From positions 1,364,001-1,428,000 of the forward strand of contig CAUYUJ010000002.1 in NCBI GenBank assembly GCA_963575745.1: DNA of 64,000 nt, read 5' to 3'. This DNA is from Prorocentrum cordatum. Taxonomy: Eukaryota. The notes under the pieces were generated by a model. That model was not told the origin of the DNA, made no database searches, and saw only the letters and a program-made list of their open reading frames with translations. Positions 1 through 48,919 of the stretch are shown piece by piece. Each line of letters opens with the position of its first letter. The stretch's first letter is position 1. Position numbers and translations under genes: made by a program.

Positions 1-107
1 GTCCTGCAGCCTTTGGGTGCATGCTTCTTAGAAGCTGCACCACCTGGCCTGTCCATGGCAGCTCAGTGCTGTCTTTGGCACCGCGGTCGATGTCCACGGC
101 AAAAAAA

Positions 108-560
108 TCATCATCATCGTCATCATCTTCATCTTCATCATCATCATCATCAGCATCGTCATCATCATCATCATCGTCATCATCATCACCATCATCATCG
201 TCATCATCATCGTCATCATCATCGTCAGCATCATCACCATCATCATACTCATAATCAGCATCGATATCATCACCACCACCATGATCATAAGCATCAACAG
301 CACCGTCTTCATCATCATCAGCATCATCACCACAATCATCAATACCACCACCATCATCCTCATCAGCATCAGCATCATCACCATGTTACCATCCGCATCA
401 TGGTGACGATCATCATCACCACCATCATCAGCGTCAGCATCATCGCCATCATCATTATCGTCATCACCACCAGCACACCAGCATCACCATCATGATCATC
501 AGCAGCAACCTTATCATCGTCATCATCGTCATCTTCATCGTCATCTTCATCGTCATCTTC
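108..560. repeat. Degenerate (CAT)n microsatellite preceded by A7
   Basis: Direct reading; source of the poly-His, poly-Ser and poly-Met ORFs. Confidence 0.95.
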
Positions 561-600
561 AGCAAGACTAGCAACAACATCACCACCCCCCCCAGGCTTC

Positions 601-5100: not shown

Positions 5101-5607
5101 TCCTCTTCCACATCGCCCCGTGCCCCCCCTCCTTTCCCCCCCCCCCCCCCCTTCCTCCCCAGCTCCAGACTGGATGGGTATGGCGGCCTTTCGGCCTACA
5201 AAGGCTTCAAAGGTTTTGTTTGAATTTCCTCCTCGTGGCCGTCCTCGTCGTCGTCGCCCTCCTCGTTCGTGTGTTCGTCCTATTTCCTCTGTCGTCTACA
5301 ATTTCTTCCTTGTCGTGCCCCTCGAATCGTTATCCGAAAGCTATTTCTTCGTCATCATCCTTCCCGTGTAGAAGATCCATGCAGGGATAGCTTCTGTTTG
5401 AGGTGCGACACAATCCGTTGTGTGGGCGGATTGCATTGGATTCGTCATGCTTGCGGGGAAAGCCACAGAAAACAAAACACAAAGAACAACCAAACAACAA
5501 CAACAACAAAAAAAAACACGAACACCGAATGAAACAACCAAGAAACCTTTCACAAAACAAAGAGTATTATTGCGTGTGGTCTCCAGGGCAGTCCAAGAAC
5601 ACAAGCC

Positions 5608-8600
5608 TCAATCAGGCTCGGAGGCTTCATCCTCCCAGGAATCTCCGTCACTGTCAGCTCTGCGGCCTCTCTCAGTGGAGATTCGCCCAAACTCTGCCAC
5701 CCAGTCTAAATCAGATTCAACAAGCCCGAAGCAGCGGAGCACTATTTGGCGCTGCTCCGTCTGGCTCGGGAGAGCCGCCGGGGCAGCATCGGCCCCAGGC
5801 GCCTCATGCACCTCTTCGTTCGGTGGTTCAGCCCGCTGCGGCTCCCAGGTGCTACGTAGCTTGTTGGCCGTAGCCCTGCCGATGCCAACAGGGGCCCCTA
5901 TGTGCAGATCCTTGGTGCGAGCCCTATTGCTAGGGAACCTGCCCTCAGCAAGGCGGCGCAGCTGCTCACGATAGCGCGGCCCTGCCTGAGCCCCGCGGCA
6001 CGGCCCCAGCATCTTAGCACTGGGCATAAGGGCAGAAAAAAAAACTCCGCATCGAAAACAAAATGTGAAAGTCTCGGCAGGGCGCTCAACTATGTGGGCA
6101 CATAAAAGTGCATGCCCGCCGAGGCGCAGAGCTACTCCACAGTATTGGCTCCACGACCCGTCCCATACGAATTCTAGTTCAAGCTCACTCTGGCTGCCCA
6201 GGCGCAGGCAGTCTGCCGCGTCGGTCTGGCCGCCGACGGTCGACTCGGAAGCGCCAGCGGCAGCGGCCGGAATGGCGGGCGGCGCATCCGCGCCCGCCGC
6301 TCCACTGAGGGCCCCTCCTGCAGGGAGCGCTGGTGGGGAACTGGCAGGGCCCAGCACGTCCTCGTAGTCGTTCATGCCGTTGTCCACCATGACGCCCTGC
6401 AGCTCGCCGAACCAGCGGGCACTCTCGCGAGCCAGCTCCTCAATGCCCTTCCACAGGTGGACCTCCCTGCCCGTGATGCCCGTGTGCATGTGGGCCCCGA
6501 GTTCAGCAAAGTGGTCCACGGCATCGTTGGCCTCCCGCTCCCAGTGCGTGGACCTCCCCGCGCCGACATCAGCGGACGTGGCATGCCCGAGAGTCTTGTG
6601 AGCTATCAGGTCCCCTAAGCTGAAATGTCCCCACACTCGGCCCCATAGATGAGGTCGTTGGTCCTGCGGCCTGGCACCAGCCCCAGGCCCGCCCTGCAAC
6701 GTGTCGACGGCCCCTTGGCAGTCGATGTAAACGTCATGGGTGCCTGGCCAGACGAGGTCGCAGAGCATGAAGATGGCGAAATCCTCTCCGTCTCTAGAAG
6801 TCTGCCGCGGGCCAGCCCAGAAAGGGACTGGCCCGTAGGCGGCAGACACCATGCGTCCGAACCGATCGGCCTGGATAACCGCCCAGCCTGCGCGGGCCAA
6901 CTCAGGGATCTCCATATGGAACGCGCTGCCGTCTGTGAACAACGGCCCGTGCAGCAATCCATCGGCTGGACGGTTGACCCACGAAATCAAGTCGGCGGGA
7001 TCCACACGAGGCAGCAGGCGCTGGTGAAGGTAAGACTCCTCGGGCAAACCTTTCTGCGCCTTCCACGCTCCACTCGCGCACGCGGGCAGCCCGGAGCAAA
7101 TGGCGTGCTCCAACCCGCTCTCGTCGCAACTGTTGGTGCGCCGGGCACCCGTAGCAGCGATGCCACACCGTGCCGAGGCCGCTCCGGCAACGCGTGCAAA
7201 GGCCATCCTTCACGAGGCCGTGGCCAAGCAAGCGGGCCTGGCTCCAGATGGTGTTGCAGATGCCGGCCCTCAGAGCCCGCTGCTGACGCTGCGTCCAGAC
7301 TGAGGTCACGCGCTGAAGGAGTGGCCTGAGACCGCTCCAAAACACTGGAAGAGTACCCGGATGATCTGGCCCACCAGCCTCGCCCCCTGCGGCCGCGGCC
7401 GCGACGCCCGACCCGACCCTGCAGAGGGCCATTCTGTCAGAGGCCCGGACAGCAGCAGCCTCCACCAGGGCCCTGAGCTGGCGCGGCGAAGTGCGATGGA
7501 GATCGTACTGCTCAGCCGTGTCGGTCCGGACGACGGCGCTGCTGACCATCTTCCAACCAACGCGGTCTAGGGTGAGGACCAAGACGTCTGCTGGAGAGCA
7601 CGCCACCCGCCAGGGGGACTTCGAAGTTGCGAGCTTCCGCTGGCCGTGCTCCAATGTCACCTGCAATACCCTGGCTGCCACTGCTCCAGACCACACCGCC
7701 TCGCACCACTGCTGGAGCACCTCCGCCGTGTTCAGCACGAGCGGGTCCACGCGGCTTCCACTGCGGTACGAGTGAAGACGGAGCCCCACGCTGGCGCCCT
7801 TGGGCAGCCGACCCATGCTGGTGACCGCACTCACCCTCAGGCCGTGGAGCTGGGACGGCGGGAGGCCCATGACGGCCCCGCCCCATAATCCAGAAGATGT
7901 AGCCCCGAGGCGATGAGCCATGGTGACGTCAGCTCCAGCTTCGCGAAGAATGGCATAACGATGACCGCGTCGTCGGGCTGCAGCCTGGCGCACACTGGTC
8001 GCCGCAACGCGTCGCAGCGCCCCCATGGTGATGTCACCGCCCAGGCTTTTAGCCCCATCTACCCTGGTCCGCGCTGGCAAGCTCCACGCCGCATCGAGGG
8101 CAGAGGCCAACTCGCGGGAGCTGGCCAAGTACCTTTACTTGCCGATGTTCACGGGCAGCGAGAGGCCCCTGAAGGAACCCGGGAGAGATTCGACACCGCC
8201 CCCCAGGCTTGCGACGACCATGTCCTGGCGCCCCGTCGCCTGCAGCGCCGCGTCGTCCACGACGTTCCGGATCTGCAGGCCAAGCCGACCAGCTCGTGCA
8301 GCGCGGAGCGGCCGGAGGAGGACCAGCTTCGCGAGAGTCGCGGCTGCCGAGCATCCAGCAATTATGGAGCCATTGGCCCGCATGGTCCCAGACACAGCGC
8401 CCCCATACAAGACGCGGCGGGGCCCGCTGTACAACATGCAGAGGCCCTTCAGCAGCCGCACCGGAAACTGGAACTCCAGGGCGGCGTCGTACAGGTCCCT
8501 CCGCCTGACGTGCTCGTAGAACTTGGACAGGTCCAAGAGAGCCGTCGCGCAATGGAAGCCGACTGCTCGACCGAAAGCGGCGTAGGCATTGTGTACCCAC

Positions 8601-10717
8601 GCGGCTTCCTCACATGAGGTGGCTCGAGACGTGCCCCAGAAGAAATCCTCCTGGAATCTACGTTCCCATTGCTGGCAGATCGGGGAGCGCATCTTGCTCC
8701 ACAGCTTGGTCACCAAGCAAAGCAATCCGATCGGTCGGAGACCCCCGTCTGGCTTAGGCAGAAAAACCAACGTGGAGAGAAGCTCATCGAGGATGACGGG
8801 GTGGCAGTCGCAGGCCACGATGATGTCCAGCAGCCGGAGCTGGAAGTCCACAGGCAACTGCAAGATCCATCGGGGATGGAAGTCGTCCCAGCCCAATCGA
8901 GCCGCCTCCCGATAGCCGCGGCACGCCCGCTGCAGGTCCTCCAAAGTGAGGTCTGGCATGTCTACGCCATCTGTCACCGCCCAGTTCTCCGGGGCCACGT
9001 CGTCGGATCTCAGCGGGTTGTCCCAGAGCGCCGCCCAATCGTCCAAGAGCTGGACCGCCGCGTCCTGCCCGCCCACCGGCAACCGGCCTCCAGTCGTAGA
9101 GTCCGCCTTGCCTCCAAACTCGTGTTTGTTCAAAGTCTTCTTGGCGAAGCGGTGCGCCTGCTTGCCGCCGTTCTGGACAGAGGCACGGGCCCACGATTTC
9201 CAGTCCTGCATTTTCTGTCTGGCATCTGCTGCCCTACGGCGCCCTAGATCCTGTTCGAGACGCTGCCAAGTCTCCTGGAGGTCGCATAAGCGCCCTTGTC
9301 CTGCATGTAGTGCAAGCAGCTGGAGATCGCACTGGCTGCAGTCATCATTCTCTGGCATCGCAGGCGCCTCCAGTACCGCGATGATATCCTGCAACTTCTC
9401 CACCCAGAGCGTCTGTCGAGCTCGTCCGGCTTGCCCGAGCCCAGTCTTTGAGAAGAGGTCCAGGCGCTGGCAGAGGCAGCGGAACGACCACCACGCAGTG
9501 GTGAGGGGTGACGAGCGCTGGCGTTGCTCGCGCCCCCACGCCGTTGCTAACGGAACCCTCGACGTTCGGGGCCCTCGCGAACGCCCGCCATAAGCAGCCC
9601 AATCGCGCTGCTCCACGCCGTGGAGGCCAACAAGGAACTCTTCAGACTTGTCGTACCACTCCAGGAGCTTGGCCACCAGCGGTACGCCACGACGCCCACC
9701 TCCACCAGCATCGTCGGTGAGGTCCCATGCCCAGTCAAGGGGCAGATGCTCCAGATGCGGACCGTGCGGCAGAGCAACCGCGAACCGTCTAAATCGAGCC
9801 GGTTTCCTGATCCAAGTGCTCGGCCTCGCCCCCTTCAGGTACAATATCACCGGGATGTGGGGCGAGAGGGGTGCATCTGCTAATGCGCCGGCTTTTTTCC
9901 ACGCATGTTGCCAACGTTTCCGCAATAACGAAGTAGTCGAGGACCCGACCCTCATCAGGGGCACCATCCCCGCCGCGTCCAGGGGCGCACGTCGCCACGT
10001 CGGGGGCCACGATCACACCCTTCACCTCGGTCAGCCAACCCGTGCTGTCCAGCTCCTCCGGGGTCAGGTTGAAGTCGCCCTGGATGACCCATGGGGAGTC
10101 GCGCTGGAGGATGATTTCGCCGACCTGGTTCAACAAGTCGATGTTCGGCTGGGCAGGGCCAGCACCGGAAACACCGTAGAACGTCACAAGCAGCAAGCCC
10201 GCAGGAAGTCCTGCACGAACTCGTCGGGCCTGCATCCTATGCTCGCACCCCTGCATGTCCACCTGAGGGGCTGGAAGGGAGGGCAGGCGCCCCTCCACCG
10301 CGAGCCATGCGCCGCCGGAGTGCTCCAGGGCGCCTTCTCCCGTCCGGGCCGCCAGGCCAACCGAGGAAGAGTAGCCTCGCGCAACCATCGCACTTTGCGG
10401 GGCGATGGCCCGTGCATCACTGTGCAACCTGGTCTCCTGCAGGCTCACCACAGTTGGGCCGGGGGTCTGTTCAGAGAGGCCGTAGTCGGCCAGGCCACCC
10501 TGAAGAGCTTGGCGGTGGACCCAGTCGAGCAAGGGGCCCGCCGTAGACCAAGCATTCACATTCGCTCCAAAGATCGTGAAATCTGTGAGGAGCTCCCGGG
10601 GCCCTGGTTGAGGTCCAAGGGGTTCGCCAGGCGGGGCGCTCCGGCACGCTGATCTTGATGGGGATGATCTGGTACTGGTAAGCAGGATCGGCACGCCCTG
10701 CCCGCACGCAGCGTTAC
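5608..10717 (-). pseudogene. LINE-A ORF2 (APE endonuclease, RT, CCHC, RNase H, C-terminal Zn-like domain)
   Basis: APE: GANVN, LQET, GDFN, LDYF, SPH. RT: LPKPDGGLRPIGL, LLDLSKFYEHV, IIAGC, VVDD. CCHC: CTRC-x8-H-x4-C. RNase H: FTDGS, RDGE, YIDC, GH, NDAVD. Lesions: frameshift near 9890, in-frame TAA at 8137-8135, frameshift near 7000-7040. Confidence 0.92.
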
Positions 10718-11872
10718 CCGCGCGGCCGGGCAGGCTTCGACTTGCCGATGCTGCGGAAGACCTGGCCGGTCTTCTCATACAACCGTCTCGCCTTCTTCTT
10801 GCGCTCCTCCTGCCTCTGCCGCTGAGCGTCAGGTTCCTCCTCAACTTCTCCGGCGGGGTCGTCGACGAGCGCGAGGTAGGCGTCCTGGTCGTCCTCTGCC
10901 AACATGTCCCAGTCGGGGGCAACGGAGGCGGCCTGCGATGCGGGTGCAAGTGCGCCATGTTCACCGGCTGGCCCAGCAGCCAGAGGGCCAGCAGGAGCAC
11001 CGCCGACACCACCAGGTGGATCGCTCCGGGCCGCCGCTGCCGCAAGCGCCGACGCCTTGTCCAAGGCAGGCCGGAAGGTGGAATCCAGGGCCGCTCCGGC
11101 GGCCTTGATCTCTTCCGGGCAATTGGCGCAACTGGCCATGGCCTGGAAGCAGCCCAGCAGCGCTTCAAAGGCAGCGAACGCATCGGTAGGGTTGGCGGAG
11201 ATTTGCGGCGGCGCCGGAGCAGACTGGATGCTCTTGGCAACGACGTCCCGCTGCTTCTGGAGCTCCTTGTACTTCTCCTCGTTCTTGGCCACCTCCTGCC
11301 TCCTGGCCTCCACCTCCTGCAGCGTGTCAGCGATCCACTGCTTGTCCGACTCGACCTGGTCGCTGAGCTTGGACATCTGGGTCTCCAGGGTCCTGATCTG
11401 GGTGGCCGTGGGCTTCTCAGCGAGCAGTAGGGACTGGAGCTCCTTCTCGCGCGCCCGCCTCTTCGCCAGGATCGCCGCCACTTCAGGGTCGTCCGCCTCC
11501 AGCTCCAGACGCTTAATGCAGTCCCGGACCTTGGCGAGTTCCTCCTTGGTCGCACTTTTCTCCCCCTCCTCCATGTCTCCTCCACCTCCCACTGCTCCCT
11601 TCGCTCCCTTCCCCTCTTTGAGTTGCTTCTGCAGCTTTGCGATGAGCACGTCCTTCTCCTTGAGCTGCTCAGCGTGCTTCCTGTCCGGGGGGGGGGCGCG
11701 TGCTGGGAGTGGGCGCTTCGACTTTGCCGCCAAAGGCCCGGTCCTTGCCGATCTTGCAGCCAAGGCAGACCTTCCGGAAGCCCTTGTTGACAAAGGGCTT
11801 GGTCGGGTCGCGGCGGTCCGCGCAGCCCAACTTGCACTTCCAAGCATCCTTGTCGGGCTCCGCTGGGGCCAT
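10714..11872 (-). pseudogene. LINE-A ORF1: N-terminal C4 zinc finger and coiled coil; frameshift at a G10 run
   Basis: ATG at 11872: MAPAEPDKDAWKCKLGC...VNKGFRKVCLGC (RanBP2-like spacing). The frame changes at the G run 11687-11696, which could be a sequencing error, into the heptad-rich ORF ending TAA at 10716-10714. Confidence 0.8.
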
Positions 11873-12137
11873 CGAGCCGTGGTGGTTCGACAGCACGTGT
11901 TCGGCTAGGCTGAGCCTTCTGGCCAAACGTGGGGTGACTCGCCCAGCCCGCAGGTGTAGCAAGTCACGAGCGTCGGCACGTTGTAGGCGTGCCCGGTGGT
12001 GCCAAGCCGCTTCGGACGGCGTCTTGGCGATCGATGGGAAGTCCTAGTGCTGGTCTAGGCGCAGGATAGGGCTGATGTATGGTTGGATGGTTCGCTTAAG
12101 AAAGCACCCCAAAACCAATCGCAACCAACGACTGCCC

Positions 12138-12150
12138 CCTGAGCCGAAAC
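12138..12150 (-). other. Degenerate partial DinoSL at the 5' terminus of LINE-A
   Basis: GTTTCGGCTCAGG versus the SL 3' part ATTTTGGCTCAAG: 10/13 identical, all differences are transitions, and it directly abuts the TSD. Confidence 0.6.
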
Positions 12151-12254
12151 TCACAAAACAAAGAGTGCAGTCTATAGTGGTGGAGGCGCTGTGGGGGTGG
12201 ACGAAATATTGAATAGATGTTCATGTATGTATGTATGTATGTATATATATAAGA

Positions 12255-20080: not shown

Positions 20081-21775
20081 ACCCCTTTTCCGGCCGTGTG
20101 GTAGGAAACGCATCGGGAACAAAAAGCGGGGATCGGGATTCGGGGGCCCATCGCGGGGCGGCGGGGGTGGCCCCGAGTGGAGCCCCGAGCGGGCTTCGGG
20201 GGAAAGGGTGCGCACGTTTGCGGAGCCACCGTGTTCCAGCCTGGCGACATGGGGGACAGGGGCCTAAATTGAGAGAGGGCGACTCTAATTGAGGTGTCGG
20301 CGACGGCGTGGACTTGGTCAAGGGCCGAGTCCACACGTATTCCAGAAAAGTAATGCGTCACCACCCCGCTGATCAGCGCGGGCGGGCGACTGAGAATAAT
20401 GATGGGGGGTGGAGGGGGACGGGCGGTGAGAGGGAGGCAGAGGCAAGGAATAGAAGCCTTGGAGGAGGAGGTGCAGGAGAAGGCGGAGGCAACGATTGGG
20501 GTGGAGGCGGAAGTGGGGGAGCAGGAGGCGCAGAAGGAAAGGACGGGGGAGAGGGGGAGGGCAGTTGACGAGTGGCGATGTCTTGGGCGAAGCGGCATTT
20601 CAGATTTCACCCTCTGCCCTCCGGCCACAGAAAATGCTCGGATAGAACAGGCCCGCAAGGTTCAGAGCGAAATACAGGACGGGCTCAAGAAGAGAAGGAC
20701 CAACGCCGAAGGGGGCGACAGTGGCGACTCTGGGCCCACTGGGGCAGTCAGTTTGTCTCGTCTCGAAGCGGGGTGGGCCCCTGAGGCCCGTGGCTATGAA
20801 GAGCCCCTGCCGATCATGGAGGGGGCCTTGAAGCTTGGAAATTCCGTCCTTCTGACCTGTCGGGAACCTTCTCGAGGACGATCCTGCTTTTGGATGACTT
20901 TGCGAGGACCATCAAGAAACCACAATGGAGAGCGGTTTTGTGGAGAGGGGCTGGAGGCTGGGGCCGGCAACTATTCGTTCAGACGGTTGCGGCGCCAGCT
21001 TCTCGTCGTACCGCAGGGCGTGCGACGGAGTGAACTGCGCGCCTCGATCGATCACCACAGGCGGCTCTTGGCCCAGACAGGGGTGGCGGCTTGGATGGCG
21101 GGGAAGCACAAAGATTATATGCCCACGTTGCTGCGTCGAAGTTTCGGGAAATCAGCAAAGTACCGATACCGCTACTCCCCGGACCTCTCCCGGGGCGCGT
21201 GCTGACCAGGATTTCGAGGCGAATCCAGCGGTGGCGACGAGGACCTCCCAGGAGGCCCCAAAAGGGGAAAACGGGCGAAGGCGTATAGGTATGCGTACCT
21301 TGTCCTACTCTGAAGGTTGGGGCCCAGTTCCATCGGCGTTGGGGGCATGCACGCAATAAATGCCACTCAGGTCATGGTGATGATAGGATCTGTGGGATTC
21401 AGAAAAACGGCCCCGGATTTAGAACATCCGTTTTAGAATCTAGTAAACTGGCTTGTTGCGTTTGCAAAATGATGTTTTGTCTAATTTTGATGATTGGGCG
21501 GCACAATTTAATACATCCGTCTCTCGCTTTAGTGAATCATCGCTTTCTCAAATATTCCCTACCCAGGCTCTGCCTAGAAGGGTCTTACTTTCTTGGCTTA
21601 AAGGGGCCAGGCAGTGCACCCCGCCCCGGGCGGTTCCCCCGGTCCCCTGGGAGCCAAGCAAAAGCAACAGCAAAGGTAAAAGCAAACGCGCGGTTCCCCC
21701 AGTTGCGCTCCCTGGGTTCCAAGCAAAAGCAAAAGCAAAGGCAAAAGTGAAGGCGAAAGCGAAGACAAAGCAAAA

Positions 21776-21993
21776 GCATAGCATAGCATAGCATAGCATA
21801 GCATAGCATAGCATATCGCAGCATAGCATAGCGCAGCATAGCATAGCATAGCCTAGCCTAGCCTAGCCTAGCCTAGCCCAGCATAGCATTGCGCAGCATA
21901 GCATAGCATAGCATAGCACAGCACAGCACAGCAGAGCAGAGCAGAGCATAGCATAGCATAGCGCAGCATAGCATAGCATAGCGCAGCACAGCA
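21776..21993. repeat. (GCATA)n/(GCCTA)n pentanucleotide microsatellite (second copy ~27320-27522)
   Basis: Direct reading. Confidence 0.95.
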
Positions 21994-22917
21994 TCCACTA
22001 CTGCTACAACTACGACGATGAGGAGAAGGAGGACGGCGTTTACCGCTCCTACTAATGTTGCTTTCCTAGAGGCTCCAACTCCTAGGTAGGCTCGCACTGG
22101 GATAACTTGTTTTAAGCGTGCTCTCACATTCATTACCATGATTAGCCAGTCGGGCTGCGGGGGCGGATCCCGGCGTGCGGGACCGCGATGCCGCCGCCGC
22201 CGAGCCCATAGTCGTGGAAGAATTCGGACACTGAATCAAAGGTCTGGTGAGCGTTCTCTTATTCGGCGTTTCGACATTGGGCGGAAGGGGAGGGAGGGGG
22301 GGGTCTAGCTCCGTACCTCTGCTTGGTGCGACTGTTTGCAGCAGTGTATCCATTGTGGGGGAGACTCCTCACCTGCTCGAAACAGGCGCCCCAAAACAGC
22401 CAAGACATACCCCATGGGGGGGGACGGGGGGTTGGCGAGTGCCCGCGCCGATCGGCAAAACAATGAATGAAAATACGATTACCAACCGATCGTGGTGTTC
22501 GGAGATGCTTCTGGTGGTAAGATGACTGCGGAGTCGAGTTTTGTGCGAGGCGGCGGCGCCGTCACTGTTTTGTCAAGGTTTGAACCCTGTGGTGTTCGGA
22601 CTTTACTGACGGGGCCACTGCTGGGCCCGAAGCAATCTGTGCATCGGGTGAATTGCGCTGGCTTCTGGTTTTGTGATCACGCGAGGGCACATGGCGCGTG
22701 TGACATATATTTTTTGTTTCCTGCAGAGGGAGAATCCGCGTACGAGAAACGTGCTCCCATTCAAAGAGAGGCCCTCGGCAACACGTCTGTCATTGGCCGA
22801 CAGATCAGGAACCCGAGCTCGAATGGCCTCTGGCCAGCCGGCGACAGGCAATGCAACGTCGGCACCTACATTCGAAGGCTAGCACTTGCGATTATCGTGC
22901 CGATTGCGAGCGCCTGA

Positions 22918-23295
22918 ACATGTTCCCCACTATGCGGGATACCTGTGGGCTGGATCAACTATCGCAGCGAACAGCGCAACCAACGCGGACGGAAACACAG
23001 GGTGGACAGCTGGATTATACGATCACGTATAGACACGATCGTCTGAACATTTCTCTTCCCCACCATGCGGGATAATTACCTGTGGGCTGGGTCAACTACC
23101 ACAGCGCACAGCGCAACCAACGCAGAGGGAAAACAGGGTGGACAGCTGGAATATACGATCACGTGTAGAGACGATGGCCTGAACATTGTGGTTCCCATCA
23201 TGCGGGATACCTGTGGGCTGGGTCAACTACCACAGCGCACAGAGCAACCAATGCGGAGGGAAAAACATGATCGACAGCTCGAATATACGATCACG
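22918..23295 (+). repeat. Three ~135-bp tandem units (ATGCGGGATA...CCTGTGGGCTGG...TATACGATCAC); second copy near 28450-28827
   Basis: Motif recurs near 22932, 23065 and 23200. Confidence 0.8.
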
Positions 23296-23519
23296 AGAAA
23301 AGACGATCGCACAACGCAACTCGCACAGAGAAATAAAAATCGGAGGTTGGGGAGTGAGATCGCAGTGGAAGGGAGACCCCCAACCGGGAAATCGTTTCGT
23401 TTCGTTCGTGACGTGCGTGCGGGCGAGGCGAAGCTGCGTGGGCGCGCGAGAGGAATGAACCCGCCGCTGCTAGGGCGAAGTCAAGACAAATGAATATCCT
23501 CCGCCCACCCGTCCAGCGG

Positions 23520-24105
23520 TGGCCCGCGGTGTGCCCCAGTGTCCCGTGGTGTCCCGTGGTGTCCGCCGCTGCTAGGGCGAAGTCAAGACAAATGAGTCTC
23601 CCCCGCCCGACCGTCTCGCGGTGGCTCGCGGTGTGCCCCGGTGTCCCGTGGTGTCCCGTGGTGTCCCGTTGAGTGAGATCGATAGTGAGATCGATAGTGA
23701 GATCGATGTGGTGCCCCAGGGTGGCCCGTGGTGTCCGTGGTGTACCAAAAAGTGAAATCGATAGTGAGGTCGAGAGGTGTCCCGCGGTGTCCCGTGGTGT
23801 CCCGTGGTGTCCCGTTGAGTGAGATCGATAGTGAGATCGATAGTGAGATCGATCCTGAGATCGATGTGGTGCCCCGAGGTGTCCCGTGGTGTCCTATGGT
23901 GTCCCGTTGAGTGAGATCGATAGTGAGATCGATAGTGAGACCGATAGTGAGACCGAGAGGTGTCCCGCGGTGTCCCGTGGTGTCCCGTGGTGGCCCGTGG
24001 TGTCCCGCTGAGTGAGATCGATAGTGAGATCGATAGTGAGATCGACAAGTGCCCCGTGGTGTCACGTGGTATCCCGTTGAGTGAGATCGATAGTGAGATC
24101 GATTG
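23520..24105 (+). repeat. Compound satellite of alternating (GTGTCCCGTG)n 10-mer and (GAGATCGATAGT)n 12-mer blocks; second copy ~29052-29637
   Basis: Direct reading; five 12-mer blocks interleaved with 10-mer blocks. Confidence 0.92.
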
Positions 24106-26973
24106 AGTCAGATGTTGGTTCCCCCCTCTCCCCCCCCCAAAACCTCCTTATCACCCGAAGGGTGATCGTATAAGTAAATATAACGACGACGATGACGGAC
24201 CGACGGTAACGCAGGCTGACAATCGGTGCCGATCCCCTCAACAATCGTCAGAGGGCTGCACGCGGAGGCCTGGAGCACAGAGTGGGGTGATACGGATCAA
24301 GCCCGAAGCGTAGCACAGCAATCGAAGAAGGAAGGAGATGAGAGCGAGGGCATCCTGAGCCAAGAGAAAAGCGCTGGCATGTGTGCTGCTCCTGCCGACG
24401 AGACCCTCAGCTAAGACCTTCACGATCAATACACGTGCGACCAGGGTGTAAACCCATGGAATATGATTCGATTGAACAGCCGAGCTTCGGGATTTCAAAC
24501 AAGGTGCACGTGCTGTCACGCTAGCAGGCGAAGCACATGCGGTTAAGGGAAAGAGAGCACAGTTTTCGAACTCCGAACCATGACTAACAGTACTCCGTTG
24601 TGAACGCTCTTGTTCCTCCATGTGGGAAGACTTTAAGCGTTTTGCAGAAAGAGAGGAATCAGCGGAGCATAAGGGGAGAAGGAGGCGGAGAGGATGGAGA
24701 AAGAGAGAGAGAGAGAGAGACAACTGATGGGATAATACATGTTTCCTGCAGAGGGAGATAATCCGAATCCGCACCTTGGACACGGTATGACAATAATGCG
24801 AGAACGGAGCTCGCATTCAAGGAGAGGCACTCGGCAACACGTCTGTCAATGGCCGACAGAACGTGATCCCTAGCTCGGATTCAAGAGGTGATGTTGCTGG
24901 CTCCAACGGGTGGAGGCTGAGCACAGCCGCCCTAATCCCACCAGCCCTTTCAGATCGCGAATGGTTCAGAGCGCTCCCTCTTCCGACCCCCTTTTCCACC
25001 CCTACTAATTCTCCCCCCTCCCCCCCTCTCCGCACCTCGAGGATAATTCACGACACGCTGGAAAAGTCAGGCCCGCGATCTGTATTGACAGTAATCTGGG
25101 CGTCCGTCGCAGCTCTGCAGCGAGCTCCTGGAAAAAACGCCTCGGGAACGCGGGAGCCGCGATCGCGGGCCCGCTGTTCCGCGGTCTGAAAGCCAGCTGG
25201 GCCGTTGGAGAGGAGCAAGAAGGAGGAAGGGGAGGAGGAGGGGGAGGAGGGGGAGGAGGAGGGCATGCGTCCTGAGACGGCCAGGAAACCAGATTAATGG
25301 ATACATGCAGTCCCTGCCCGAACGAGGCAAGCATCCCCGTCACGGACGAGGCCAGGAGCCAGAGAAGGTGAGACGGCATCGCCTCGTCTACGTGCTTCCT
25401 GCAACGCGGCGAATCTGGGGCACTCCTTACGCCCCAGTTTCTTAGAACAGAGCACGCGCGCAACATTGCTGCGCGAGGCTTCGGCACTGCTGCGCTGGAC
25501 CCCAGGGTGTTGAAACCGTGGTGAGCTTAGGCTACGGACGCGTTGCCCGTTCGCCACTGCTGCGCCCGGTCGCCGCCACCATGCCGAGGCGGCACAGGCC
25601 TTTGGTTCAGACCGAGGCCACGTGCTGCGTGCTACCAGTCTTGTGTCGACAGCGGTGGAGACGCCCATACACGCCGTGCGCACTGGTAGCAGCAACGCGC
25701 GGTGAAAACTGCAGGCCAGCAAGGTCTCCATGTGCCCCGCCCCTCTCTGCTGATGCGTCGATGGGACTGATGTTCGTAACATCGAGTTCTTTGGGGAGCC
25801 CGAAGCCTAGAAATATCCACCGACGCCGAAATTGAGAAGAAGACTTAGCGCGTCTTGTCGTGACACCGAAGGTCAGGAGGAGGAAGAGTAGGAGGGAGAA
25901 GAGGAGGAGGGGGAGGAGGAGGATGAAGACCACCACGCCATGTCACAGGGTGACGATGACGGTCGGCTCGCAAATGTCGATGGGCTCTGAGTTGTCATCG
26001 CCTCCGCCGACCTCAGGGGCATCCGGCAGAAGCAAGACCACCTGCTTGATCGGCGACCTGGTGGTGTTCTGCTTGCCCTTCCGAGATGTCTCCGAGCTCC
26101 AGAACAGGAAGCTGAAGATGGAGGAGGCCTGCATCCCTGGCATCGCGCCTGGTAGGGTAATCGGTGGAATTACCTGCGCTCGCGAGGAGCACTTGTAGAG
26201 GGAGCGGCTTGAACCAAAGTGTCTACGGATGGCGTATGTGACATATTGCGACGCTGCTATTTCTGGTGGTTAAGCTCGCGTGTACCGTCGGCCTTGTGTT
26301 GCCAACAAAGACAAGGATCCCTCGTTCGCTTGTCATCGAGAACTCGTGCGCGGCCACTCTTGCAACTCAAGCCGCCTCATCCGCCCGCGTGCCAGATGAA
26401 CCATGGGCGAACATCATGACGATCGAGCGGACTGCCTACCTTATCAGGCATCGCCTACCCTCGAGGCCCTGCAGGCGGAAGAAGGGGCGGGAGCGCGCCC
26501 GAAGGTGAAAAGACCTCCTCCTCCTCCTCCTCCTCCTCCTCCATCCCGCTCATTTCTCTGTTCGGTCCATGTTCTCCAGACACTTGCTCGACGAATCCAG
26601 GCATAGAGGTAGAGTGCGTCGAGCTTCGGCATCCAAGGCGACCGCTTCTGAGTGGTGGATTATCCTTGTTTCGAACCCCAGTGTGCCAATTCGAAGCGTT
26701 GGAAATCCTTGTCGAGGGGCGGCTGCAAATCGCTGAGGGTTGGGCTGAGGGGACGCATCACAAGATGTTGTCCAAGGCACTTAATTGCGAGGCGGGGATT
26801 CTCCATATCCACCGCCTAGTCAACCGACGTCCTGGGACCCCAGCTGGCGGTAGGCGTTGGATATATGTTTGCCCCAGGGGTCCCGAGTATATCCACATCC
26901 ACCGCCTGCCGAAATCCCCGAAGATCGATCTCATAGACACTAATGATGGATAAATCCTTGCCTCGGGTGAATG

Positions 26974-29900
26974 CCGTTTTTGAATCTAGTAAACTGGCTT
27001 GCTGCGTTTGCACAATGATGTTTTGTCTAATTTTGATTAGGCGGCACAATTTAATACATCCGTCTCTCGCTTAAGTGAATCATCGCTTTCTCAAATATTC
27101 CCTACCTAGGCTCTGCCTAGAAGGGTTCTTACTTTCTTGGCTTAAAGGGGCCAGGCAGTGCACCCCGCCCCGGGCGATCCCCCCGGTTCCCTGGGAGCCA
27201 AGCAAAAGCAACAGCAAAGGTAAAAGCAAACGCGCGGTTCCCCCAGTTGCGCTCCCTGGGTACCAAGCAAAAGCAAAAGCAAAGGCAAAAGTGAAGGCGA
27301 AAGCGAAGACAAAGCAAAAGCATAGCATAGCATAGCATAGCATAGCATAGCGCAGCATAGCATAGCGCAGCATAGCATAGCCTAGCCTAGCCTAGCCTAG
27401 CCTAGCCTAGCCCAGCATAGCATTGCGCAGCATAGCATAGCATAGCATAGCACAGCACAGCACAGCATAGCATAGCATAGCATAGCGCAGCGCAGCATAG
27501 CATAGCATAGCGCAGCACAGCATCCACTACTGCTACAACTACGACGATGAGGAGAAGGAGGAGGACGGCGTTTACCGCTCCTACTAATGTTGCTTTCCTA
27601 GAGGCTCCAACTCCTAGGTAGGCTCGCACTGGGATAACTTGTTTTAAGCGTGCTCTCACATTCATTACCATGATTAGCCAGTCGGGCTGCGGGGGCGGAT
27701 CCCGGCGTGCGGGACCGCGATGCCGCCGCCGCCGAGCCCATAATCGTGGAAGAATTCGGACACTGAATCAAAGGTCTGGTGAGCGTTCTCTTATTCGGCG
27801 TTTCGACATTGGGCGGAAAGGGAGGGAGGGGGGGGTCTAGCTCCGTACCTCTGCTTGGTGCGACTGTTTGCAGCAGTGTATCCATTGTGGGGGAGACTCC
27901 TCACCTGCTCGAAACAGGCGCCCCAAAACAGCCAAGACATACCCCATGGGGGGGGACGGGGGGTTGGCGAGTGCCCGCGCCGATCGGCAAAACAATGAAT
28001 GAAAATACGATTACCAACCGATCGTGGTGTTCGGAGATGCTTCTGGTGGTAAGATGACTGCGGAGTCGAGTTTTGTGCGAGGCGGCGGCGCCGTCACTGT
28101 TTTGTCAAGGTTTGAACCCTGTGGTGTTCGGACTTTACTGACGGGGCCACTGCTGGGCCCGAAGCAATCTGTGCATCGGGTGAATTGCGCTGGTTTCTGG
28201 TTTTGTGATCACGCGAGGGCACATGGCGCGTGTGACATATATTGTTTGTTTCCTGCAGAGGGAGAATCCGCGTACGAGAAACGTGCTCCCATTCAAAGAG
28301 AGGCCCTCGGCAACACGTCTGTCATTGGCCGACAGATCAGGAACCCGAGCTCGAATGGCCTCTGGCCAGCCGGCGACAGGCAATGCAACGTCGGCACCTA
28401 CATTCGAAGGCTAGCACTTGCGATTATCGTGCCGATTGCGAGCGCCTGAATATGTTCCTCACTATGCGGGATACCTGTGGGCTGGATCAACTATCGCAGC
28501 GAACAGCGCAACCAACGCGGACGGAAACACAGGGTGGACAGCTGGTTTATACGATCACGTATAGACACGATCGTCTGAACATTTCTCTTCCCCACCATGC
28601 GGGATAATTACCTGTGGGCTGGGTCAACTACCACAGCGCACAGCGCAACCAACGCAGAGGGAAAACAGGATGGACAGCTGGAATATACGATCACGTGTAG
28701 AGACGATGGCCTGAACATTGTGGTTCCCATCATGCGGGATACCTGTGGGCTGGGTCAACTACCACAGCGCACAGAGCAACCAACGCGGAGGGAAAAACAT
28801 GATCGACAGCTCGAATATACGATCACGAGAAAAGACGATCGCACAACGCAACTCGCACAGATAAATAAAAATCGGAGGTTGGGGAGTGAGATCGCAGTGG
28901 AACGGAGACCCCCAACCGGGAAATAGTTTCGTTTCGTTCGTGACGTGCGTGCGGGCGAGGCGAAGCTGCGTGGGCGCGCGAGAGGAATGAACCCGCCGCT
29001 GCTAGGGCGAAGTCAAGACAAATGAATATCCTCCGCCAACCCGTCCAGCGGTGGCACGCGGTGTGCCCCGATGTCCCGTGGTGTCCCGTGGTGTCCGCCG
29101 CTGCTAGGGCGAAGTCAAGACAAATGGGTCTCCCCCGCCCGCCCGTCTCGCGGTGGCTCGCGGTGTGCCCCTGTGTCCCGTGGTGTCCCGTGGTGTCCCG
29201 TTGAGTGAGATCGATAGTGAGATCGATAGTGAGATCGATGTGGTGCCCCAGGGTGGCCCGTGGTGTCCGTGGTGTACCAAAAAGTGAAATCGATGGTGAG
29301 GTCGAGAGGTGTCCCGCGGTGTCCCGTGGTGTCCCGTGGTGTCCCGTTGAGTGAGATCGATAGTGAGATCGATAGTGAGATCGATCCTGAGATCGATGTG
29401 GTGCCCCGAGGTGTCCCGTGGTGTCCTATGGTGTCCCGTTGAGTGAGATCGATAGTGAGATCGATAGTGAGATTGATAGTGAGATCGAGAGGTGTCCTGC
29501 GGTGTCCCGTGGTGTCCCGTGGTTGCCCGTGGTGTCCCGCTGAGTGAGATCGATAGTGAGATCGATAGTGAGATCGACAAGTGCCCCGTGGTGTCACGTG
29601 GTATCCCGTTGAGTGAGATCGATAGTGAGATCGATTGAGTCAGATGTTGGTTCCCCCCTCTCCCCCCCCCACAACCTCCTTATCACCCGAAGGGTGATCG
29701 TATAAGTAAATATAACAACGACGATGACGGACCGACGGTAACGCAGGCTGACAATCGGTGCCGATCCCCTCAACAATCGTCAGAGGGCTGCACGCGGAGG
29801 CCTGGAGCACAGAGTGGGGTGATACGGATCAAGCCCGAAGCGTAGCACAGCAATCGAAGACGGAAGGAGATGAGAGCGAGGGCATCCTGAGCCAAGAGAA

Positions 29901-32505
29901 AAGCGCTGGCATGTGTGCTGCTCCTGCCGACGAGACCCTCAGCTAAGACCATCACGATCAATACACGTGCGACCAGGGTGTAAACCCATGGAATATGATT
30001 CGATTGAACAGCCGAGCTTCGGGATTTCAAACAAGGTGCACGTGCTGTCACGCTAGCAGGCGAAGCACATGCGGTTAAGGGAAAGAGAGCACAGTTTTCG
30101 AACTCCGAACCATGACTAACAGTACTCCGTTGTGAACGCTCTTGTTCCTCCATGTGGGAAGACTTTAAGCGTTTTGCAGAAAGAGAGGAATCAGAGGAGC
30201 ATAAGGGGAGAAGGAGGCGGAGAGGATGGAGAAAGAGAGAGAGAGAGAGACAACTGATGGGATAATACATGTTTCCTGCAGAGGGAGATAATCCGAATCC
30301 GCACCTTGGACACGGTATGACAATAATGCGAGAACGGAGCTCGCATTCAAGGAGAGGCACTCGGCAACACGTCTGTCAATGGCCGACAGAACGTGATCCC
30401 TAGCTCGGATTCAAGAGGCGATGTTGCTGGCTCCAACGGGTGGAGGCTGAGCACAGCCGCCCTAATCCCACCAGCCCTTTCAGGTCGCGAATGGTTCAGA
30501 GCGCTCCCTCTTCCGACCCCCTTTTCCACCCCTACTAATTCTCCCCCCTCCCCCCCTCTCCGCACCTCGAGGATAATTCACGACACGCTGGAAAAGTCAG
30601 GCCCGCGATCTGTATTGACAGTAATCTGGGCGTCCGTCGCAGCTCTGCAGCGAGCTCCTGGAAAAAACGCCTCGGGAACGCGGGAGCCGCGATCGCGGGC
30701 CCGCTGTTCCGCGGTCTGAAAGCCAGCTGGGCCGTTGGAGAGGAGCAAGAAGGAGGAAGGGGAGGAGGAGGGGGAGGAGGGGGAGGAGGAGGGCATGCGT
30801 CCTGAGACGGCCAGGAAACCAGATTAATGGATACATGCAGTCCCTGCCCGAACGAGGCAAGCATCCCCGTCACGGACGAGGCCAGGAGCCAGAGAAGGTG
30901 AGACGGCATCGCCTCGTTTACGTGCTTCCTGCAACGCGGCGAATCTGGGGCACTCCTTACGCCCCAGTTTCTTAGAACAGAGCACGCGCGCAACATTGCT
31001 GCGCGAGGCTTCGGCACTGCTGCGCTGGACCCCAGGGTGTTGAAACCGTGGTGAGCTTAGGCTACGGACGCGTTGCCCGTTCGCCACTGCTGCGCCCGGT
31101 CGCCGCCACCATGCCGAGGCGGCACAGGCCTTTGGTTCAGACCGAGGCCACGTGCTGCGTGCTACCAGTCTTGTGTCGACAGCGGTGGAGACGCCCATAC
31201 ACGCCGTGCGCACTGGTAGCAGCAACGCGCGGTGAAAACTGCAGGCCAGCAAGGTCTCCATGTGCCCCGCCCCTCTCTGCTGATGCGTCGATGGGACTGA
31301 TGTTCGTAACATCGAGTTCTTTGGGGAGCCCGAAGCCTAGAAATATCCACCGACGCCGAAATTGAGAAGAAGACTTAGCGCGTCTTGTCGTGACACCGAA
31401 GGTCAGGAGGAGGAAGAGGAGGAGGGAGAAGAGGAGGAGGGGGAGGAGGAGGATGAAGACCACCACGCCATGTCACAGGGTGACGATGACGGTCGGCTCG
31501 CAAATGTCGATGGGCTCTGAGTTGTCATCGCCTCCGCCGACCTCAGGGGCATCCGGCAGAAGCAAGACCACCTGCTTGATCGGCGACCTGGTGGTGTTCT
31601 GCTTGCCCTTCCGAGATGTCTCCGAGCTCCGGAACAGGAAGCTGAAGATGGAGGAGGCCTGCATCCCTGGCATCGCGCCTGGTAGGGTAATCGGTGGAAT
31701 TACCTGCGCTCGCGAGGAGCACTTGTAGAGGGAGCGGCTTGAACCAAAGTGTCTACGGATGGCGTATGTGACATATTGCGACGCTGCTATTTCTGGTGGT
31801 TAAGCTCGCGTGTACCGTCGGCCTTGTGTTGCCAACAAAGACAAGGATCCCTCCTTCGCTTGTCATCGAGAACTCGTGCGCGGCCACTCTTGCAACTCAA
31901 GCCGCCTCATCCACCCGCGTGCCAGATGAACCATGGGCGAACATCATGACGATCGAGCGGACTGCCTACCTTATCAGGCATCGCCTACCCTCGAGGCCCT
32001 GCAGGCGGAAGAAGGGGCGGGAGCGCGCCCGAAGGTGAAAAGACCTCCTCCTCCTCCTCCTCCTCCTCCTCCATCCCGCTCATTTCTCTGTTCGGTCCAT
32101 GTTCTCCAGACACTTGCTCGACGAATCCAGGCATAGAGGTAGAGTGCGTCGAGCTTCGGCATCCAAGGCGACCGCTTCTGAGTGGTGGATTATCCTTGTT
32201 TCGAACCCCAGTGTGCCAATTCGAAGCGTTGGAAATCCTTGTCGAGGGGCGGCTGCAAATCGCTGAGGGTTGGGCTGAGGGGACGCATCACAAGATGTTG
32301 TCCAAGGCACTTAATTGCGAGGCGGGGATTCTCCATATCCACCGCCTAGTCAACCGACGTCCTGGGACCCCAGCTGGCGGTAGGCGTTGGATATATGTTT
32401 GCCCCAGGGGTCCCGAGTATATCCACATCCACCGCCTGCCGAAATCCCCGAAGATCGATCTCATAGACACTAATGATGGATAAATCCTTGCCTCGGGTGA
32501 ATGCC
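26974..32505 (+). repeat. Tandem segmental duplication, copy 2
   Basis: Begins CCGTTTTTGAATCTAGTAAACTGG and ends GGGTGAATGCC; CC microhomology at the junction. Confidence 0.97.
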
Positions 32506-35574: not shown

Positions 35575-36378
35575 GGACCAGTGGAAACCCAAGAGTCATC
35601 AACGATGTTGGAATTAACCCGTTCTCCAAGCTCCCTCTTCATAGGCCACTACAACGGATCATTTCCATTGAGGGAGCTGCCTCGCTGGAAGACATTGTTC
35701 TCGGGATTTGAACGCCGCGTATCGACCTGACTGCTGCGTCTTGACGATCCAGAATCGTGCCAGAACGCCTTCTTTGGGACTTCAACATAACGAATCGATA
35801 TAACTGCTGCGCCCGTATAATCCGGAATCCTTCCAAAACACCATGTCTGGTGCGCTGGTCAAAGGAATCCGTGAAACTCTTGAAAATGTTAGAACCGAAT
35901 GTGCGCGGCGCTACGGCGAGACCAACGTTTTGAAAAGGAGCCGCCCTCAATCCGTGAAACTCTTGCAATTGTTCAAAACGAATGTGCGCGGCGCTGACGT
36001 GAGAATCACATTTTGAAAACGACCCGCCCTCAAGCCGTGAAACTCTTGCAAATGTTTCAGACGAGTGTGCTTGGCGCTCATGCGAGAACCACATTTTGAA
36101 AACGACCCGCCCTCCATCCGTGAAGCTCTTGCTGTAACTTTTGAAAACGAATGTGCGCGGCGCTAACGCGAGAACCACATTTTGAAAACGGCCCGCCCTC
36201 CCTCCGTGAAACTCTTGCAAATGATTCAGACGAGTGTGCGCGGCGCTAAGGCAAGAACCACATGTTTGAAACTACCCGCCCTCAATCCGTGAAACTCTTG
36301 CAAATGTGTAAAACGAATGTGCGCCGCGCTAAGGCGAGAGCCACATTTTGAAAGCGACCCGCCCTCCATCTGAGAAAC
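35575..36378 (-). repeat. Dispersed repeat: 83-bp tandem array (35868-36378) plus unique tail
   Basis: GTGAA(A/G)CTCTTG recurs at 35871, 35954, 36037, 36120, 36206 and 36289; the tail is homologous to 4800-5100. Confidence 0.85.

Positions 36379-45734: not shown

Positions 45735-45779
<45 letters not shown>

Positions 45780-46114: not shown

Positions 46115-46150
<36 letters not shown>

Positions 46151-48882: not shown

Positions 48883-48919
<37 letters not shown>

What the first reader, a model, noticed from the sequence alone, without database searches (positions are those of the whole stretch)
12138..12166. LINE-A, a different family, also begins with an SL-like remnant directly against its TSD
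The 16-bp TSD fixes the 5' end at 12150 independently of any SL search. The first 13 nt, GTTTCGGCTCAGG, match the 3' part of the SL at 10/13 with only transitions. Two divergent full-length LINEs in one window both having SL heads suggests a clade-wide property. The match is short, so its weight comes from its position.
Basis: partly seen in the sequence, partly recalled or inferred. Interest (0 to 1): 0.75.

Follow-up and report, generated by a model that had tools for sequence, protein, structure and literature searches.

The report
Possible spliced-leader relic heading a LINE
A 6.6-kb jumping gene (a LINE) in a dinoflagellate-type genome starts with 13 bases that look like a worn copy of the tag this group adds to its messenger RNAs, probably an old inherited remnant and not a fresh tag.

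Summary
A perfect 16-bp target-site duplication (5550-5565 and 12151-12166) brackets a 6585-bp minus-strand LINE (5566-12150) with ORF1, endonuclease, reverse transcriptase and no poly(A). Its first 13 nt, GTTTCGGCTCAGG, match DinoSL positions 10-22 at 10 of 13, and all three differences are AT-to-GC transitions.

Anywhere in the window such a match is ordinary: 12 found against 12.04 expected. At one fixed, TSD-defined position it is rare, about 1.7e-4 under a Markov null. A second LINE in the window begins with a nearly complete SL, so the idea has a precedent here.

It is not a freshly spliced leader. The nearest other copies differ from this one by only about 0.5-1.2%. Two contigs from a related run also stop matching the window at 12150/12151, and what follows there is not the missing SL half. 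So the 13-mer is family-encoded DNA.

Best reading (about 0.5): an old SL relic, inherited and decayed at the family's 5' terminus. Chance resemblance stays at about 0.3. I could not build the family consensus: no genome is held and all collection scans were empty. Interest is modest.

The parts
12151..12166 (.). Target-site duplication, copy next to the element's 5' end (TCACAAAACAAAGAGT on the + strand)
   Evidence: One of two exact copies in the window; 0.01 expected by chance; sequence read.
5550..5565 (.). Target-site duplication, copy next to the element's 3' end
   Evidence: Exact second copy.
5566..12150 (-). LINE-A, a 6585-bp non-LTR retrotransposon, 64.5% G+C, ending ...CACGCAATAAT with no poly(A) tail
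   Evidence: Bounded by the TSD. Carries endonuclease and RT domains. It has no second nucleotide copy in the window. It is multi-copy elsewhere: 115 contigs of run X1 laid on it, split 18/43/25/29 at 99+/95-99/90-95/under 90% likeness. Composition and 3' end.
12138..12150 (-). SL-like 13-mer GTTTCGGCTCAGG, the first 13 nt of the element; aligns with DinoSL positions 10-22
   Evidence: 10 of 13 agree, with three AT-to-GC transitions. Aligns in register with the SL heads at 49552 and 42505 (alignment A1). Positional chance is about 1.7e-4.
11873..12137 (-). Rest of the 278-nt 5' UTR
   Evidence: The ATG used here as the ORF1 start (11872, the ATG opening the zinc-finger-like reading frame) lies at element position 279. 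Stops occur in all three frames upstream of it.
10714..11872 (-). ORF1: a Cys-rich, zinc-finger-like N-terminus (WKCKLGC...CLGC) followed by a Glu/Lys-rich stretch. It is 386 codons if one G of the G10 run at 11687 is dropped.
   Evidence: Frames. At 11687, 2 of 2 X1 contigs (all the depth there) have one base fewer (table 4). The site is a homopolymer, so the frameshift may be an assembly error. No Pfam family above cut-off.
5608..10778 (-). ORF2, about 1723 aa once the differences seen in other copies are allowed for; the start candidate ATG 10778 overlaps the end of ORF1
   Evidence: Frame bookkeeping. Other copies have one base fewer at 9893-9896 (three contigs, together 10.67 of 10.7 depth; a T6 run). 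They have GC for TT at 8135-8136, which removes the in-frame TAA (2 of 2 contigs). They have two extra bases at 7015 (1 of 1 contig). Each of these changes shifts the frame in the direction needed to join the window's four ORF pieces (my bookkeeping).
9903..10532 (-). Apurinic-type endonuclease domain
   Evidence: Pfam Exo_endo_phos, E 1.4e-5, 25.4 bits against a cut-off of 24.5. Weak exonuclease III match in the PDB, E 0.024. 29% identity over 103 aa to the endonuclease of LINE-B, E 6e-10.
8228..8758 (-). Reverse transcriptase domain
   Evidence: Pfam RVT_1, E 1.1e-4, 22.4 bits, below the cut-off of 29.6. 28.8% identity over 215 aa to the RT of LINE-B, E 8e-21. 4 of the 5 database relatives carry PF00078; the best is an Amphidinium carterae protein at 29% identity. 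The nearest named Atlas clusters are RT plus endonuclease families.
6826..6942 (-). Possible start of an RNase H-like domain (LFTDGS...AGWAVI)
   Evidence: Only a weak BLASTP match, E 0.051, to the start of LINE-B's third ORF, which carries a Pfam RNase_H domain. No Pfam or PDB hit of its own.
5566..5607 (-). 3' UTR, 42 nt, no poly(A)
   Evidence: Stop codon at 5608-5610; element end fixed by the TSD.

Best explanation
LINE-A is an endonuclease-type non-LTR retrotransposon that inserted by target-primed reverse transcription and made a 15- or 16-bp target duplication. The RNA template was copied to its last base. The first 13 nt are not a leader added to that RNA. They are DNA-encoded sequence of the LINE-A family. 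Their most likely origin is a dinoflagellate spliced leader that was trans-spliced onto an ancestral LINE-A transcript and copied into DNA with it, as is seen almost fresh on the second LINE of this window. Later generations started their RNA at or inside that relic, so it was inherited. It lost its first 9 nt (DinoSL positions 1-9: the variable first letter plus CCGTAGCC) and drifted by three AT-to-GC transitions in a genome that is about 62% G+C. Shown: the element, its ends, the similarity, its positional rarity, the multi-copy family, and the same end point in two other copies. Inferred: the SL ancestry, the time of capture, and where transcription starts.
For: A perfect TSD fixes the 5' end independently of any SL search. 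The terminal 13-mer scores as an SL suffix at a level reached by 1.7e-4 of random positions (851 of 5,118,320). All 3 differences are transitions; among copies of this family 284 of 448 listed kinds of change in X1 are transitions (table 1). SL relics are common here. The 21-mer with up to 3 mismatches occurs 3 times against 0.00 expected. The site at 42504-42540 is the textbook arrangement of a full SL followed by a relic CCATCTTGGCTCAAG. LINE-B, with endonuclease, RT and RNase H by Pfam, starts with CCGTAGCCATTTGGCTCAAG followed directly by ATG. The family is old enough for such decay: 29 of 115 X1 contigs are under 90% alike and 25 are 90-95% alike. Two X1 contigs stop matching the window at the same place, 12150/12151, which suggests a defined family terminus rather than a random 5' truncation (table 7). 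Perfect TSDs and neighbours only 0.5-1.2% different show that the three differences predate this insertion, as an inherited relic requires.
Against: The match is only 13 nt with 3 mismatches. It would fail the published relic criteria: at most one mismatch for a primary DinoSL, or a BLAST match to an SL-plus-relic query (PMC7245778 methods passage). It starts at SL position 10, not at the usual relic start CCATTTTGG (position 8). No copy with more or better SL was seen. The two other copies glimpsed match the window through its terminal letters and show no SL 5' half. Their upstream letters agree with each other at 0.78. If both loose ends span the 30 letters shown, that is more than unrelated flanks should agree, and it would mean the family runs on upstream. 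If one loose end is short, the figure means nothing; I could not tell which. The family consensus, which is the decisive test, could not be built.
Confidence: 0.5

Rival explanations
1. Chance resemblance. The family's own 5' terminus happens to look like the SL's 3' part and has no historical link to trans-splicing.
For: 13-mers this close to the SL are as frequent in the window as in shuffles (12 against 12.04). About nine loci with no other sign of being relics reach the same score (one search list).
Against: At one fixed position the rate is 1.7e-4. All three mismatches are transitions, which has probability 1/27 if mismatching letters were random (my arithmetic). SL-headed retrocopies, including a LINE, lie in the same window.
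Confidence: 0.3
2. The window's copy is a 5'-truncated copy of a longer element. The SL-like motif, relic or not, lies inside the full-length 5' UTR, and the truncation happened to fall there.
For: Two X1 contigs continue past 12151 with letters that agree with each other at 0.78 (table 7). If both span the 30 letters shown, that is above the roughly 0.63 expected for unrelated sequence of this composition (my arithmetic from the base frequencies).
Against: All three copies switch at the same base. A truncation falling exactly at an SL-like 13-mer needs the same 1.7e-4 coincidence. The 0.78 figure is inflated if one loose end is short; the median length is 68 and the individual lengths were not given.
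Confidence: 0.12
3. A fresh spliced leader was trans-spliced onto the very RNA that made this copy, was 5'-truncated during reverse transcription, and was then altered by RT error, RNA editing or later mutation.
For: LINE-B shows that SL-capped LINE RNA is copied into DNA in this genome. The differences are A-to-G twice and U-to-C once, the kinds that RNA editing can make (general knowledge, not tested here).
Against: The TSDs are perfect. The nearest copies differ by 0.5-1.2%, which gives about 3e-4 for three changes in 13 nt. Two other contigs match the window up to its terminal letters, so the 13-mer is templated family DNA.
Confidence: 0.03
4. The SL-like start is kept by selection as a functional mimic of the leader, for example for an Sm-like site or for cap-proximal recognition in translation. 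It may or may not have come from an SL.
For: A sharply defined terminus is shared by three copies.
Against: No conservation data are available. The three changes fall in the AUUUUGG core and in the terminal AAG, which a mimic would be expected to keep (inference).
Confidence: 0.05

Closest known systems
Relic DinoSL (DinoRL) at the 5' end of dinoflagellate retrogenes. Slamovits and Keeling 2008 as described in PMC6050394 and PMC7245778 (passages); PMC12014239 (passages).
   Same: SL-derived letters encoded in DNA at the 5' end of a retroposed unit. The window holds textbook examples: 42504-42540 is an SL followed by CCATCTTGGCTCAAG.
   Different: Here the carrier is an autonomous LINE, not a host gene. 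The remnant is shorter (13 nt, starting at SL position 10 rather than 8) and more decayed (3 mismatches). It lies directly against a TSD. No fresh SL or transcript evidence is available.
SymbioLINE and SymbioLINE-Dnmt elements of Symbiodinium (de Mendoza et al. 2018, PMC5890265; passages and figure legend)
   Same: Dinoflagellate LINEs with Exo_endo_phos, RVT_1 and RNase_H, flanking TSDs, conserved 5' and 3' UTRs and no poly(A) tail. LINE-A has the same layout, apart from its weak RNase H evidence.
   Different: ORF1 of LINE-A has no DNMT; it is zinc-finger-like and Glu/Lys-rich. Relatedness of the RT to SymbioLINEs was not tested because no reference sequence was on hand. The main text of that paper has 0 occurrences of 'spliced leader', and its held supplements have none either.
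Trypanosomatid L1Tc/ingi LINEs with the Pr77 5' promoter (PMC1874656 and PMC8190864; abstracts in the search listing)
   Same: LINEs in another lineage that trans-splices its mRNAs, with a fixed, conserved 5' terminus that defines the RNA start.
   Different: By those abstracts, Pr77 makes unspliced transcripts, so the elements carry no SL. LINE-B here carries one and LINE-A may carry a relic.
LINEs that insert into spliced-leader genes (SLACS, CZAR, CRE, NeSL; names recalled, not from any call)
   Same: An association between LINEs and SL sequence.
   Different: Those elements have SL-gene sequence in their flanks. Here the SL-like letters lie inside the TSD, and the target ACTCTTTGTTTTGTGA is not SL sequence.

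Membership tests
Non-LTR (LINE) retrotransposon, apurinic-endonuclease type | Endonuclease/exonuclease/phosphatase-fold domain upstream of the RT | tested here: met
   Pfam Exo_endo_phos, 25.4 bits against a cut-off of 24.5, E 1.4e-5; related to LINE-B's endonuclease at E 6e-10.
Non-LTR (LINE) retrotransposon, apurinic-endonuclease type | Reverse transcriptase domain | tested here: met
   Pfam RVT_1 is below its cut-off (22.4 against 29.6 bits). However, the tblastn match to LINE-B's RT has E 8e-21, and 4 of 5 database relatives carry PF00078.
Non-LTR (LINE) retrotransposon, apurinic-endonuclease type | Target-site duplication, no terminal repeats, dispersed copies | tested here: met
   Perfect 16-bp TSD. 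115 contigs of run X1 at 80-100% likeness cover all 30 bins. Terminal repeats were not searched for specifically.
Relic DinoSL | Sequence match to the SL at published stringency (at most one mismatch, or a BLAST hit to an SL-plus-relic query; PMC7245778 methods passage) | tested here: not met
   10 of 13 with 3 mismatches; only 13 of the 22 SL positions are present.
Relic DinoSL | Lies at the very 5' end of a retroposed unit | tested here: met
   It abuts the TSD at 12150/12151. Positional chance is 1.7e-4.
Relic DinoSL | Transcripts carry a fresh SL directly upstream of the relic | not testable with these tools
   The single run search was used with kind dna. No RNA run was laid.
Relic DinoSL | Copies or older subfamilies show a more complete or more canonical SL | tested here: inconclusive
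   Only two other 5' ends were glimpsed. They match the window through its terminal letters and have no SL 5' half. Six scans of three public collections found no further copies.
SL-gene-specific LINE | Flanks are SL-gene sequence | tested here: not met
   The TSD and flanks are unrelated to the SL. No SL RNA or 5S family was found in the window by Rfam (0 matches).

The most novel reading that the evidence does not exclude
Dinoflagellate LINEs as a group obtain their capped 5' end from the host's SL trans-splicing rather than from a promoter of their own. The leader then becomes part of the element each time it is copied. LINE-B shows the fresh state and LINE-A a fossil state in which the relic has become the family's fixed 5' terminus. 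If so, LINEs copy SL-capped RNA to the last base, which points to them as the source of the SL-tagged retrogenes that make up about a fifth of genes in some dinoflagellates. A 2018 review left open which retroelement is responsible and leaned towards LTR elements (PMC6050394 passage).
Probability: 0.25. Interest if true: 0.65.

Novelty: new member of a known kind. Interest (0 to 1): 0.35.

Why it matters
Relic spliced leaders are the accepted mark of retroposition in dinoflagellates, yet the element that does the copying has not been identified (PMC6050394 passage). A LINE that itself carries SL-derived letters directly against a target-site duplication would show that LINE RNAs pass through the same trans-splicing and reverse-transcription cycle as host mRNAs. 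It would also show that the LINE machinery copies such RNAs to their 5' end. In this window that case rests mainly on LINE-B. LINE-A adds, at best, an older and decayed example. It also carries a caution: SL-like heads on young copies can be inherited DNA and do not prove recent trans-splicing. Three full-text searches and passages of eleven papers turned up no description of SL-headed dinoflagellate LINEs. Subscription journals, and all supplements except those of PMC5890265, were not seen.

Tried and rejected

2. Other copies in the window: blastn of the element against the window found only itself.

3. Public collections, all empty:
- ORF1 protein against metagenome contigs: 448 pattern matches, none confirmed.
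- A CpG-free 21-mer from the 5' UTR against metagenome contigs, genome contigs and viral contigs: 0 matches each.
- RT ORF against viral contigs (6 pattern matches) and genome contigs (52 pattern matches): none confirmed.
These scans need exact words, so they say little about absence.

4. Earlier notes of this scan: nothing by place, words or sequence.

5. Read laying: the metagenome runs X2, X3 and X5 gave no cover in the last bin (12005-12215), so only X1 bears on the 5' end. Of the rows for other letters, 492 were not shown. The exact letters of the two X1 contigs over 12138-12149 are therefore not known. No row for that stretch appears among those kept, which is only a weak hint that both contigs do not differ there.

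6. I considered using predicted proteins from other assemblies to read upstream sequence. I dropped this because the ATG frame has a stop 35 codons into the element.

7. PDB sequence search: nothing for the RT or C-terminal pieces. Rfam: 0 families.

8. A TSD for the SL-plus-relic unit at 42504: a 17-mer probe of its upstream flank found no second copy. Not pursued.

9. An alignment that starts the element at the A of 12151 and allows one inserted C gives 11 of 13 with a gap. That is no better than the ungapped reading (done by eye).

10. Supplements of PMC5890265 held as text contain no element sequences and no mention of 'spliced leader'.

Full report
WHAT IS THERE. The window is about 62% G+C and holds several copies of the dinoflagellate spliced leader (DinoSL, DCCGTAGCCATTTTGGCTCAAG as printed in PMC7245778; passage). 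The 21-nt core with up to 3 mismatches occurs 3 times against 0.00 expected. The finding concerns the minus strand at 12138-12150, which reads GTTTCGGCTCAGG. Immediately outside it lies TCACAAAACAAAGAGT (12151-12166). Its only other occurrence in the window is at 5550-5565, with 0 mismatches and 0.01 expected. The neighbouring bases differ, so this is a 16-bp target-site duplication bracketing a 6585-bp insertion, 5566-12150, on the minus strand.

THE ELEMENT. After a 278-nt 5' UTR, an ATG at 11872 opens ORF1. ORF1 has a Cys-rich, zinc-finger-like start followed by a Glu/Lys-rich stretch and stops at 10714. ORF2 probably starts at ATG 10778, overlapping the end of ORF1, and runs to 5608.
- It carries an Exo_endo_phos endonuclease at 9903-10532 (Pfam E 1.4e-5, just above cut-off).
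- It carries a reverse transcriptase at 8228-8758. Pfam RVT_1 is below cut-off, but the region matches the RT of the window's other LINE at E 8e-21, with 28.8% identity over 215 aa.
- There is a faint RNase H-like start at 6826-6942 (E 0.051 against LINE-B's RNase H-bearing ORF).
- The 3' end is ...CACGCAATAAT, with no poly(A).

Only 5 database proteins match the RT piece, and the best is from Amphidinium carterae at 29% identity. The PDB holds nothing close. The layout is the one described for Symbiodinium 'SymbioLINE' elements: endonuclease, RT and RNase H, TSDs, conserved UTRs and no poly(A) (PMC5890265 passages). LINE-A differs in having no DNMT in ORF1.

THE FAMILY. No genome is held and the window has no second nucleotide copy. 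Contigs of a public run labelled X1 (organism A) cover all 30 bins of the element. 115 contigs were laid, of which 18 are 99% or more alike, 43 are 95-99%, 25 are 90-95% and 29 are under 90%. Three marine metagenome runs hold pieces as well. So LINE-A is a multi-copy family with both young and old members.

Where the window's reading frames break, the other copies differ in a way that mends each break:
- one base fewer at 11687 (2 of 2 contigs);
- one base fewer at 9893-9896 (three contigs, together 10.67 of 10.7 depth);
- GC for TT at 8135-8136, which removes an in-frame TAA (2 of 2 contigs);
- two extra bases at 7015 (1 of 1 contig).
The direction of each frame shift fits. The first two sites are G10 and T6 runs, so they may be assembly errors rather than real lesions. 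The nearest contigs differ from the window copy by 3 of 618, 3 of 382 and 7 of 579 letters (table 8). With perfect TSDs, this makes it a young insertion.

IS THE SL LIKENESS MORE THAN CHANCE? Against ATTTTGGCTCAAG the 13-mer agrees at 10 of 13. The differences are at 12150 (G for A), 12146 (C for T) and 12139 (G for A), all AT-to-GC transitions. Taken anywhere in the window this is ordinary: 12 matches at up to 3 mismatches against 12.04 expected.

To test that, I scored every position as a mock element start. The score was a log-likelihood ratio for 'the first k nt equal the last k nt of the SL', with k from 8 to 21, 20% divergence, and transitions weighted as observed in this family. The observed score of 9.23 is reached at 75 of 127,950 window positions. 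Most of those lie inside five evident relics, and about nine other loci remain. In Markov-1 random sequence it is reached at 851 of 5,118,320 positions, or 1.7e-4. Allowing for a base or two of boundary slack and for two LINE ends inspected, chance is about 1e-3 to 3e-3.

There is also a local precedent. LINE-B has endonuclease and RT in a 1830-aa ORF and RNase H in the next ORF (Pfam). It begins at 49552-49571 with CCGTAGCCATTTGGCTCAAG, the SL core lacking one T, followed directly by ATG. It lies in a (CCT)n microsatellite and ends near 60845. At 42504-42540 there is a full SL with 1 mismatch followed by the classic truncated relic CCATCTTGGCTCAAG. An SL origin for the LINE-A start is therefore more likely than not.

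WHAT IT IS NOT. It is not a leader spliced onto the RNA that made this copy. At about 1% divergence, three changes in 13 nt have a probability near 3e-4 (my arithmetic), and the TSDs show no change in 32 nt. More directly, two X1 contigs run through the 5' end and stop matching the window at place 12151 (table 7). They therefore share the window's terminal letters. Beyond that point they read ACGACCCCCG... on the + strand, not the complement of CCGTAGCC. The 13-mer is thus family-encoded DNA, and at least three copies switch from element to something else at the same base. A fresh SL would be perfect and would extend upstream, as it does on LINE-B.

MOST LIKELY HISTORY. An ancestral LINE-A transcript was trans-spliced and then copied into DNA with its leader. 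That copy became a master element. Its descendants start their RNA at or within the relic, so the relic was inherited, lost its first 9 nt (the variable first letter plus CCGTAGCC), and drifted towards G+C. The family's spread of divergence, with many contigs 5 to over 10% apart, leaves room for 3 changes in 13 nt along a master lineage. This part is inference.

WHAT WEAKENS IT.
- The remnant fails the published relic criteria and starts at SL position 10 rather than 8 (passage).
- The two loose ends agree with each other at 0.78. If both span the 30 letters shown, they are related, and the family may run on upstream, which would make 12150 a truncation point. If one is short, the figure is meaningless. 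The output gives only a median length of 68.
- The place 12151 suggests that the true first base may be the A at 12151, with a 15-bp TSD. That adds a mismatch.
- The decisive consensus could not be built.

COMPARISON AND NOVELTY. DNA-encoded SL relics on retroposed host genes are well known. A relic on an autonomous LINE is a new carrier for a known mark, not a new mechanism. Three full-text searches and passages of the papers read turned up no description of SL-headed dinoflagellate LINEs. A 2018 review says the retroelement behind retrogene formation is unknown and favours LTR elements. In trypanosomatids, the other classic trans-splicing lineage, the LINE 5' end is an internal promoter that gives unspliced RNA (abstracts). 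That is a useful contrast with LINE-B. LINE-A is not a LINE that targets SL genes: its flanks are not SL sequence.

VERDICT. Interest is modest, because the strong example in this window is LINE-B and the LINE-A evidence is 13 decayed letters.

Noticed in passing
window 49551-60845 (+): LINE-B is an 11.3-kb LINE that begins with T+CCGTAGCCATTTGGCTCAAG, the DinoSL with one T missing, followed directly by ATG at 49572. It has a 1830-aa ORF with endonuclease and RT, then a 1086-aa ORF with RNase H. There is a 33/66-nt tandem array in the 3' part (59936-60526). It ends ...GGGTTTAAAAAT inside a (CCT)n microsatellite, so its TSD cannot be delimited.
   Followed up: partly
window 42504-42540 (+): A full SL (TCCGTAGCTATTTTGGCTCAAG, 1 mismatch) is followed at once by a truncated relic, CCATCTTGGCTCAAG. 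This is the textbook mark of a twice-retroposed transcript. An ATG follows at 42619. A 17-mer probe of the upstream flank found no TSD.
   Followed up: partly
window 21428-32505: Two tandem copies of a 5.55-kb unit, 98.6% alike. Each carries on the minus strand an SL-like 21-mer with 3 mismatches (26208-26228 and 31738-31758) and a second SL-like 12-mer, TCTTGGCTCAGG (24354-24365 and 29886-29897). Each also has an (AGCAT)n array and internal 131-, 102- and 67-nt repeats.
   Followed up: no
window 5480-12215, runs X2, X3, X5: Marine metagenome runs from other studies hold pieces of LINE-A; in X3, 7 of 30 laid contigs are 99% or more alike. This organism or a close relative therefore occurs in seawater samples. 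No habitat or strain is claimed.
   Followed up: no
window 11687 and 9893-9896: Two of the four apparent lesions of the LINE-A copy are one-base length differences in G10 and T6 runs relative to all contigs laid there. They may be homopolymer errors of the assembly rather than real frameshifts.
   Followed up: partly
window 107-561, 48463-49481, 60842-61136, 62705-63531: Very long trinucleotide arrays (ATC, CCT, TCA, TCC, CTC; up to 270 units) give long spurious open frames on both strands. An 83-nt satellite at 35866-36379 has related units in the opposite orientation at 2646-2864.
   Followed up: no
window 45574-46818 (+): An open frame has a sub-threshold Pfam match to the YL1 nuclear protein (E 1.7e-5, 25.5 bits against a cut-off of 29.2). 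It lies downstream of the SL-plus-relic site at 42504 and could be part of a retrogene.
   Followed up: no
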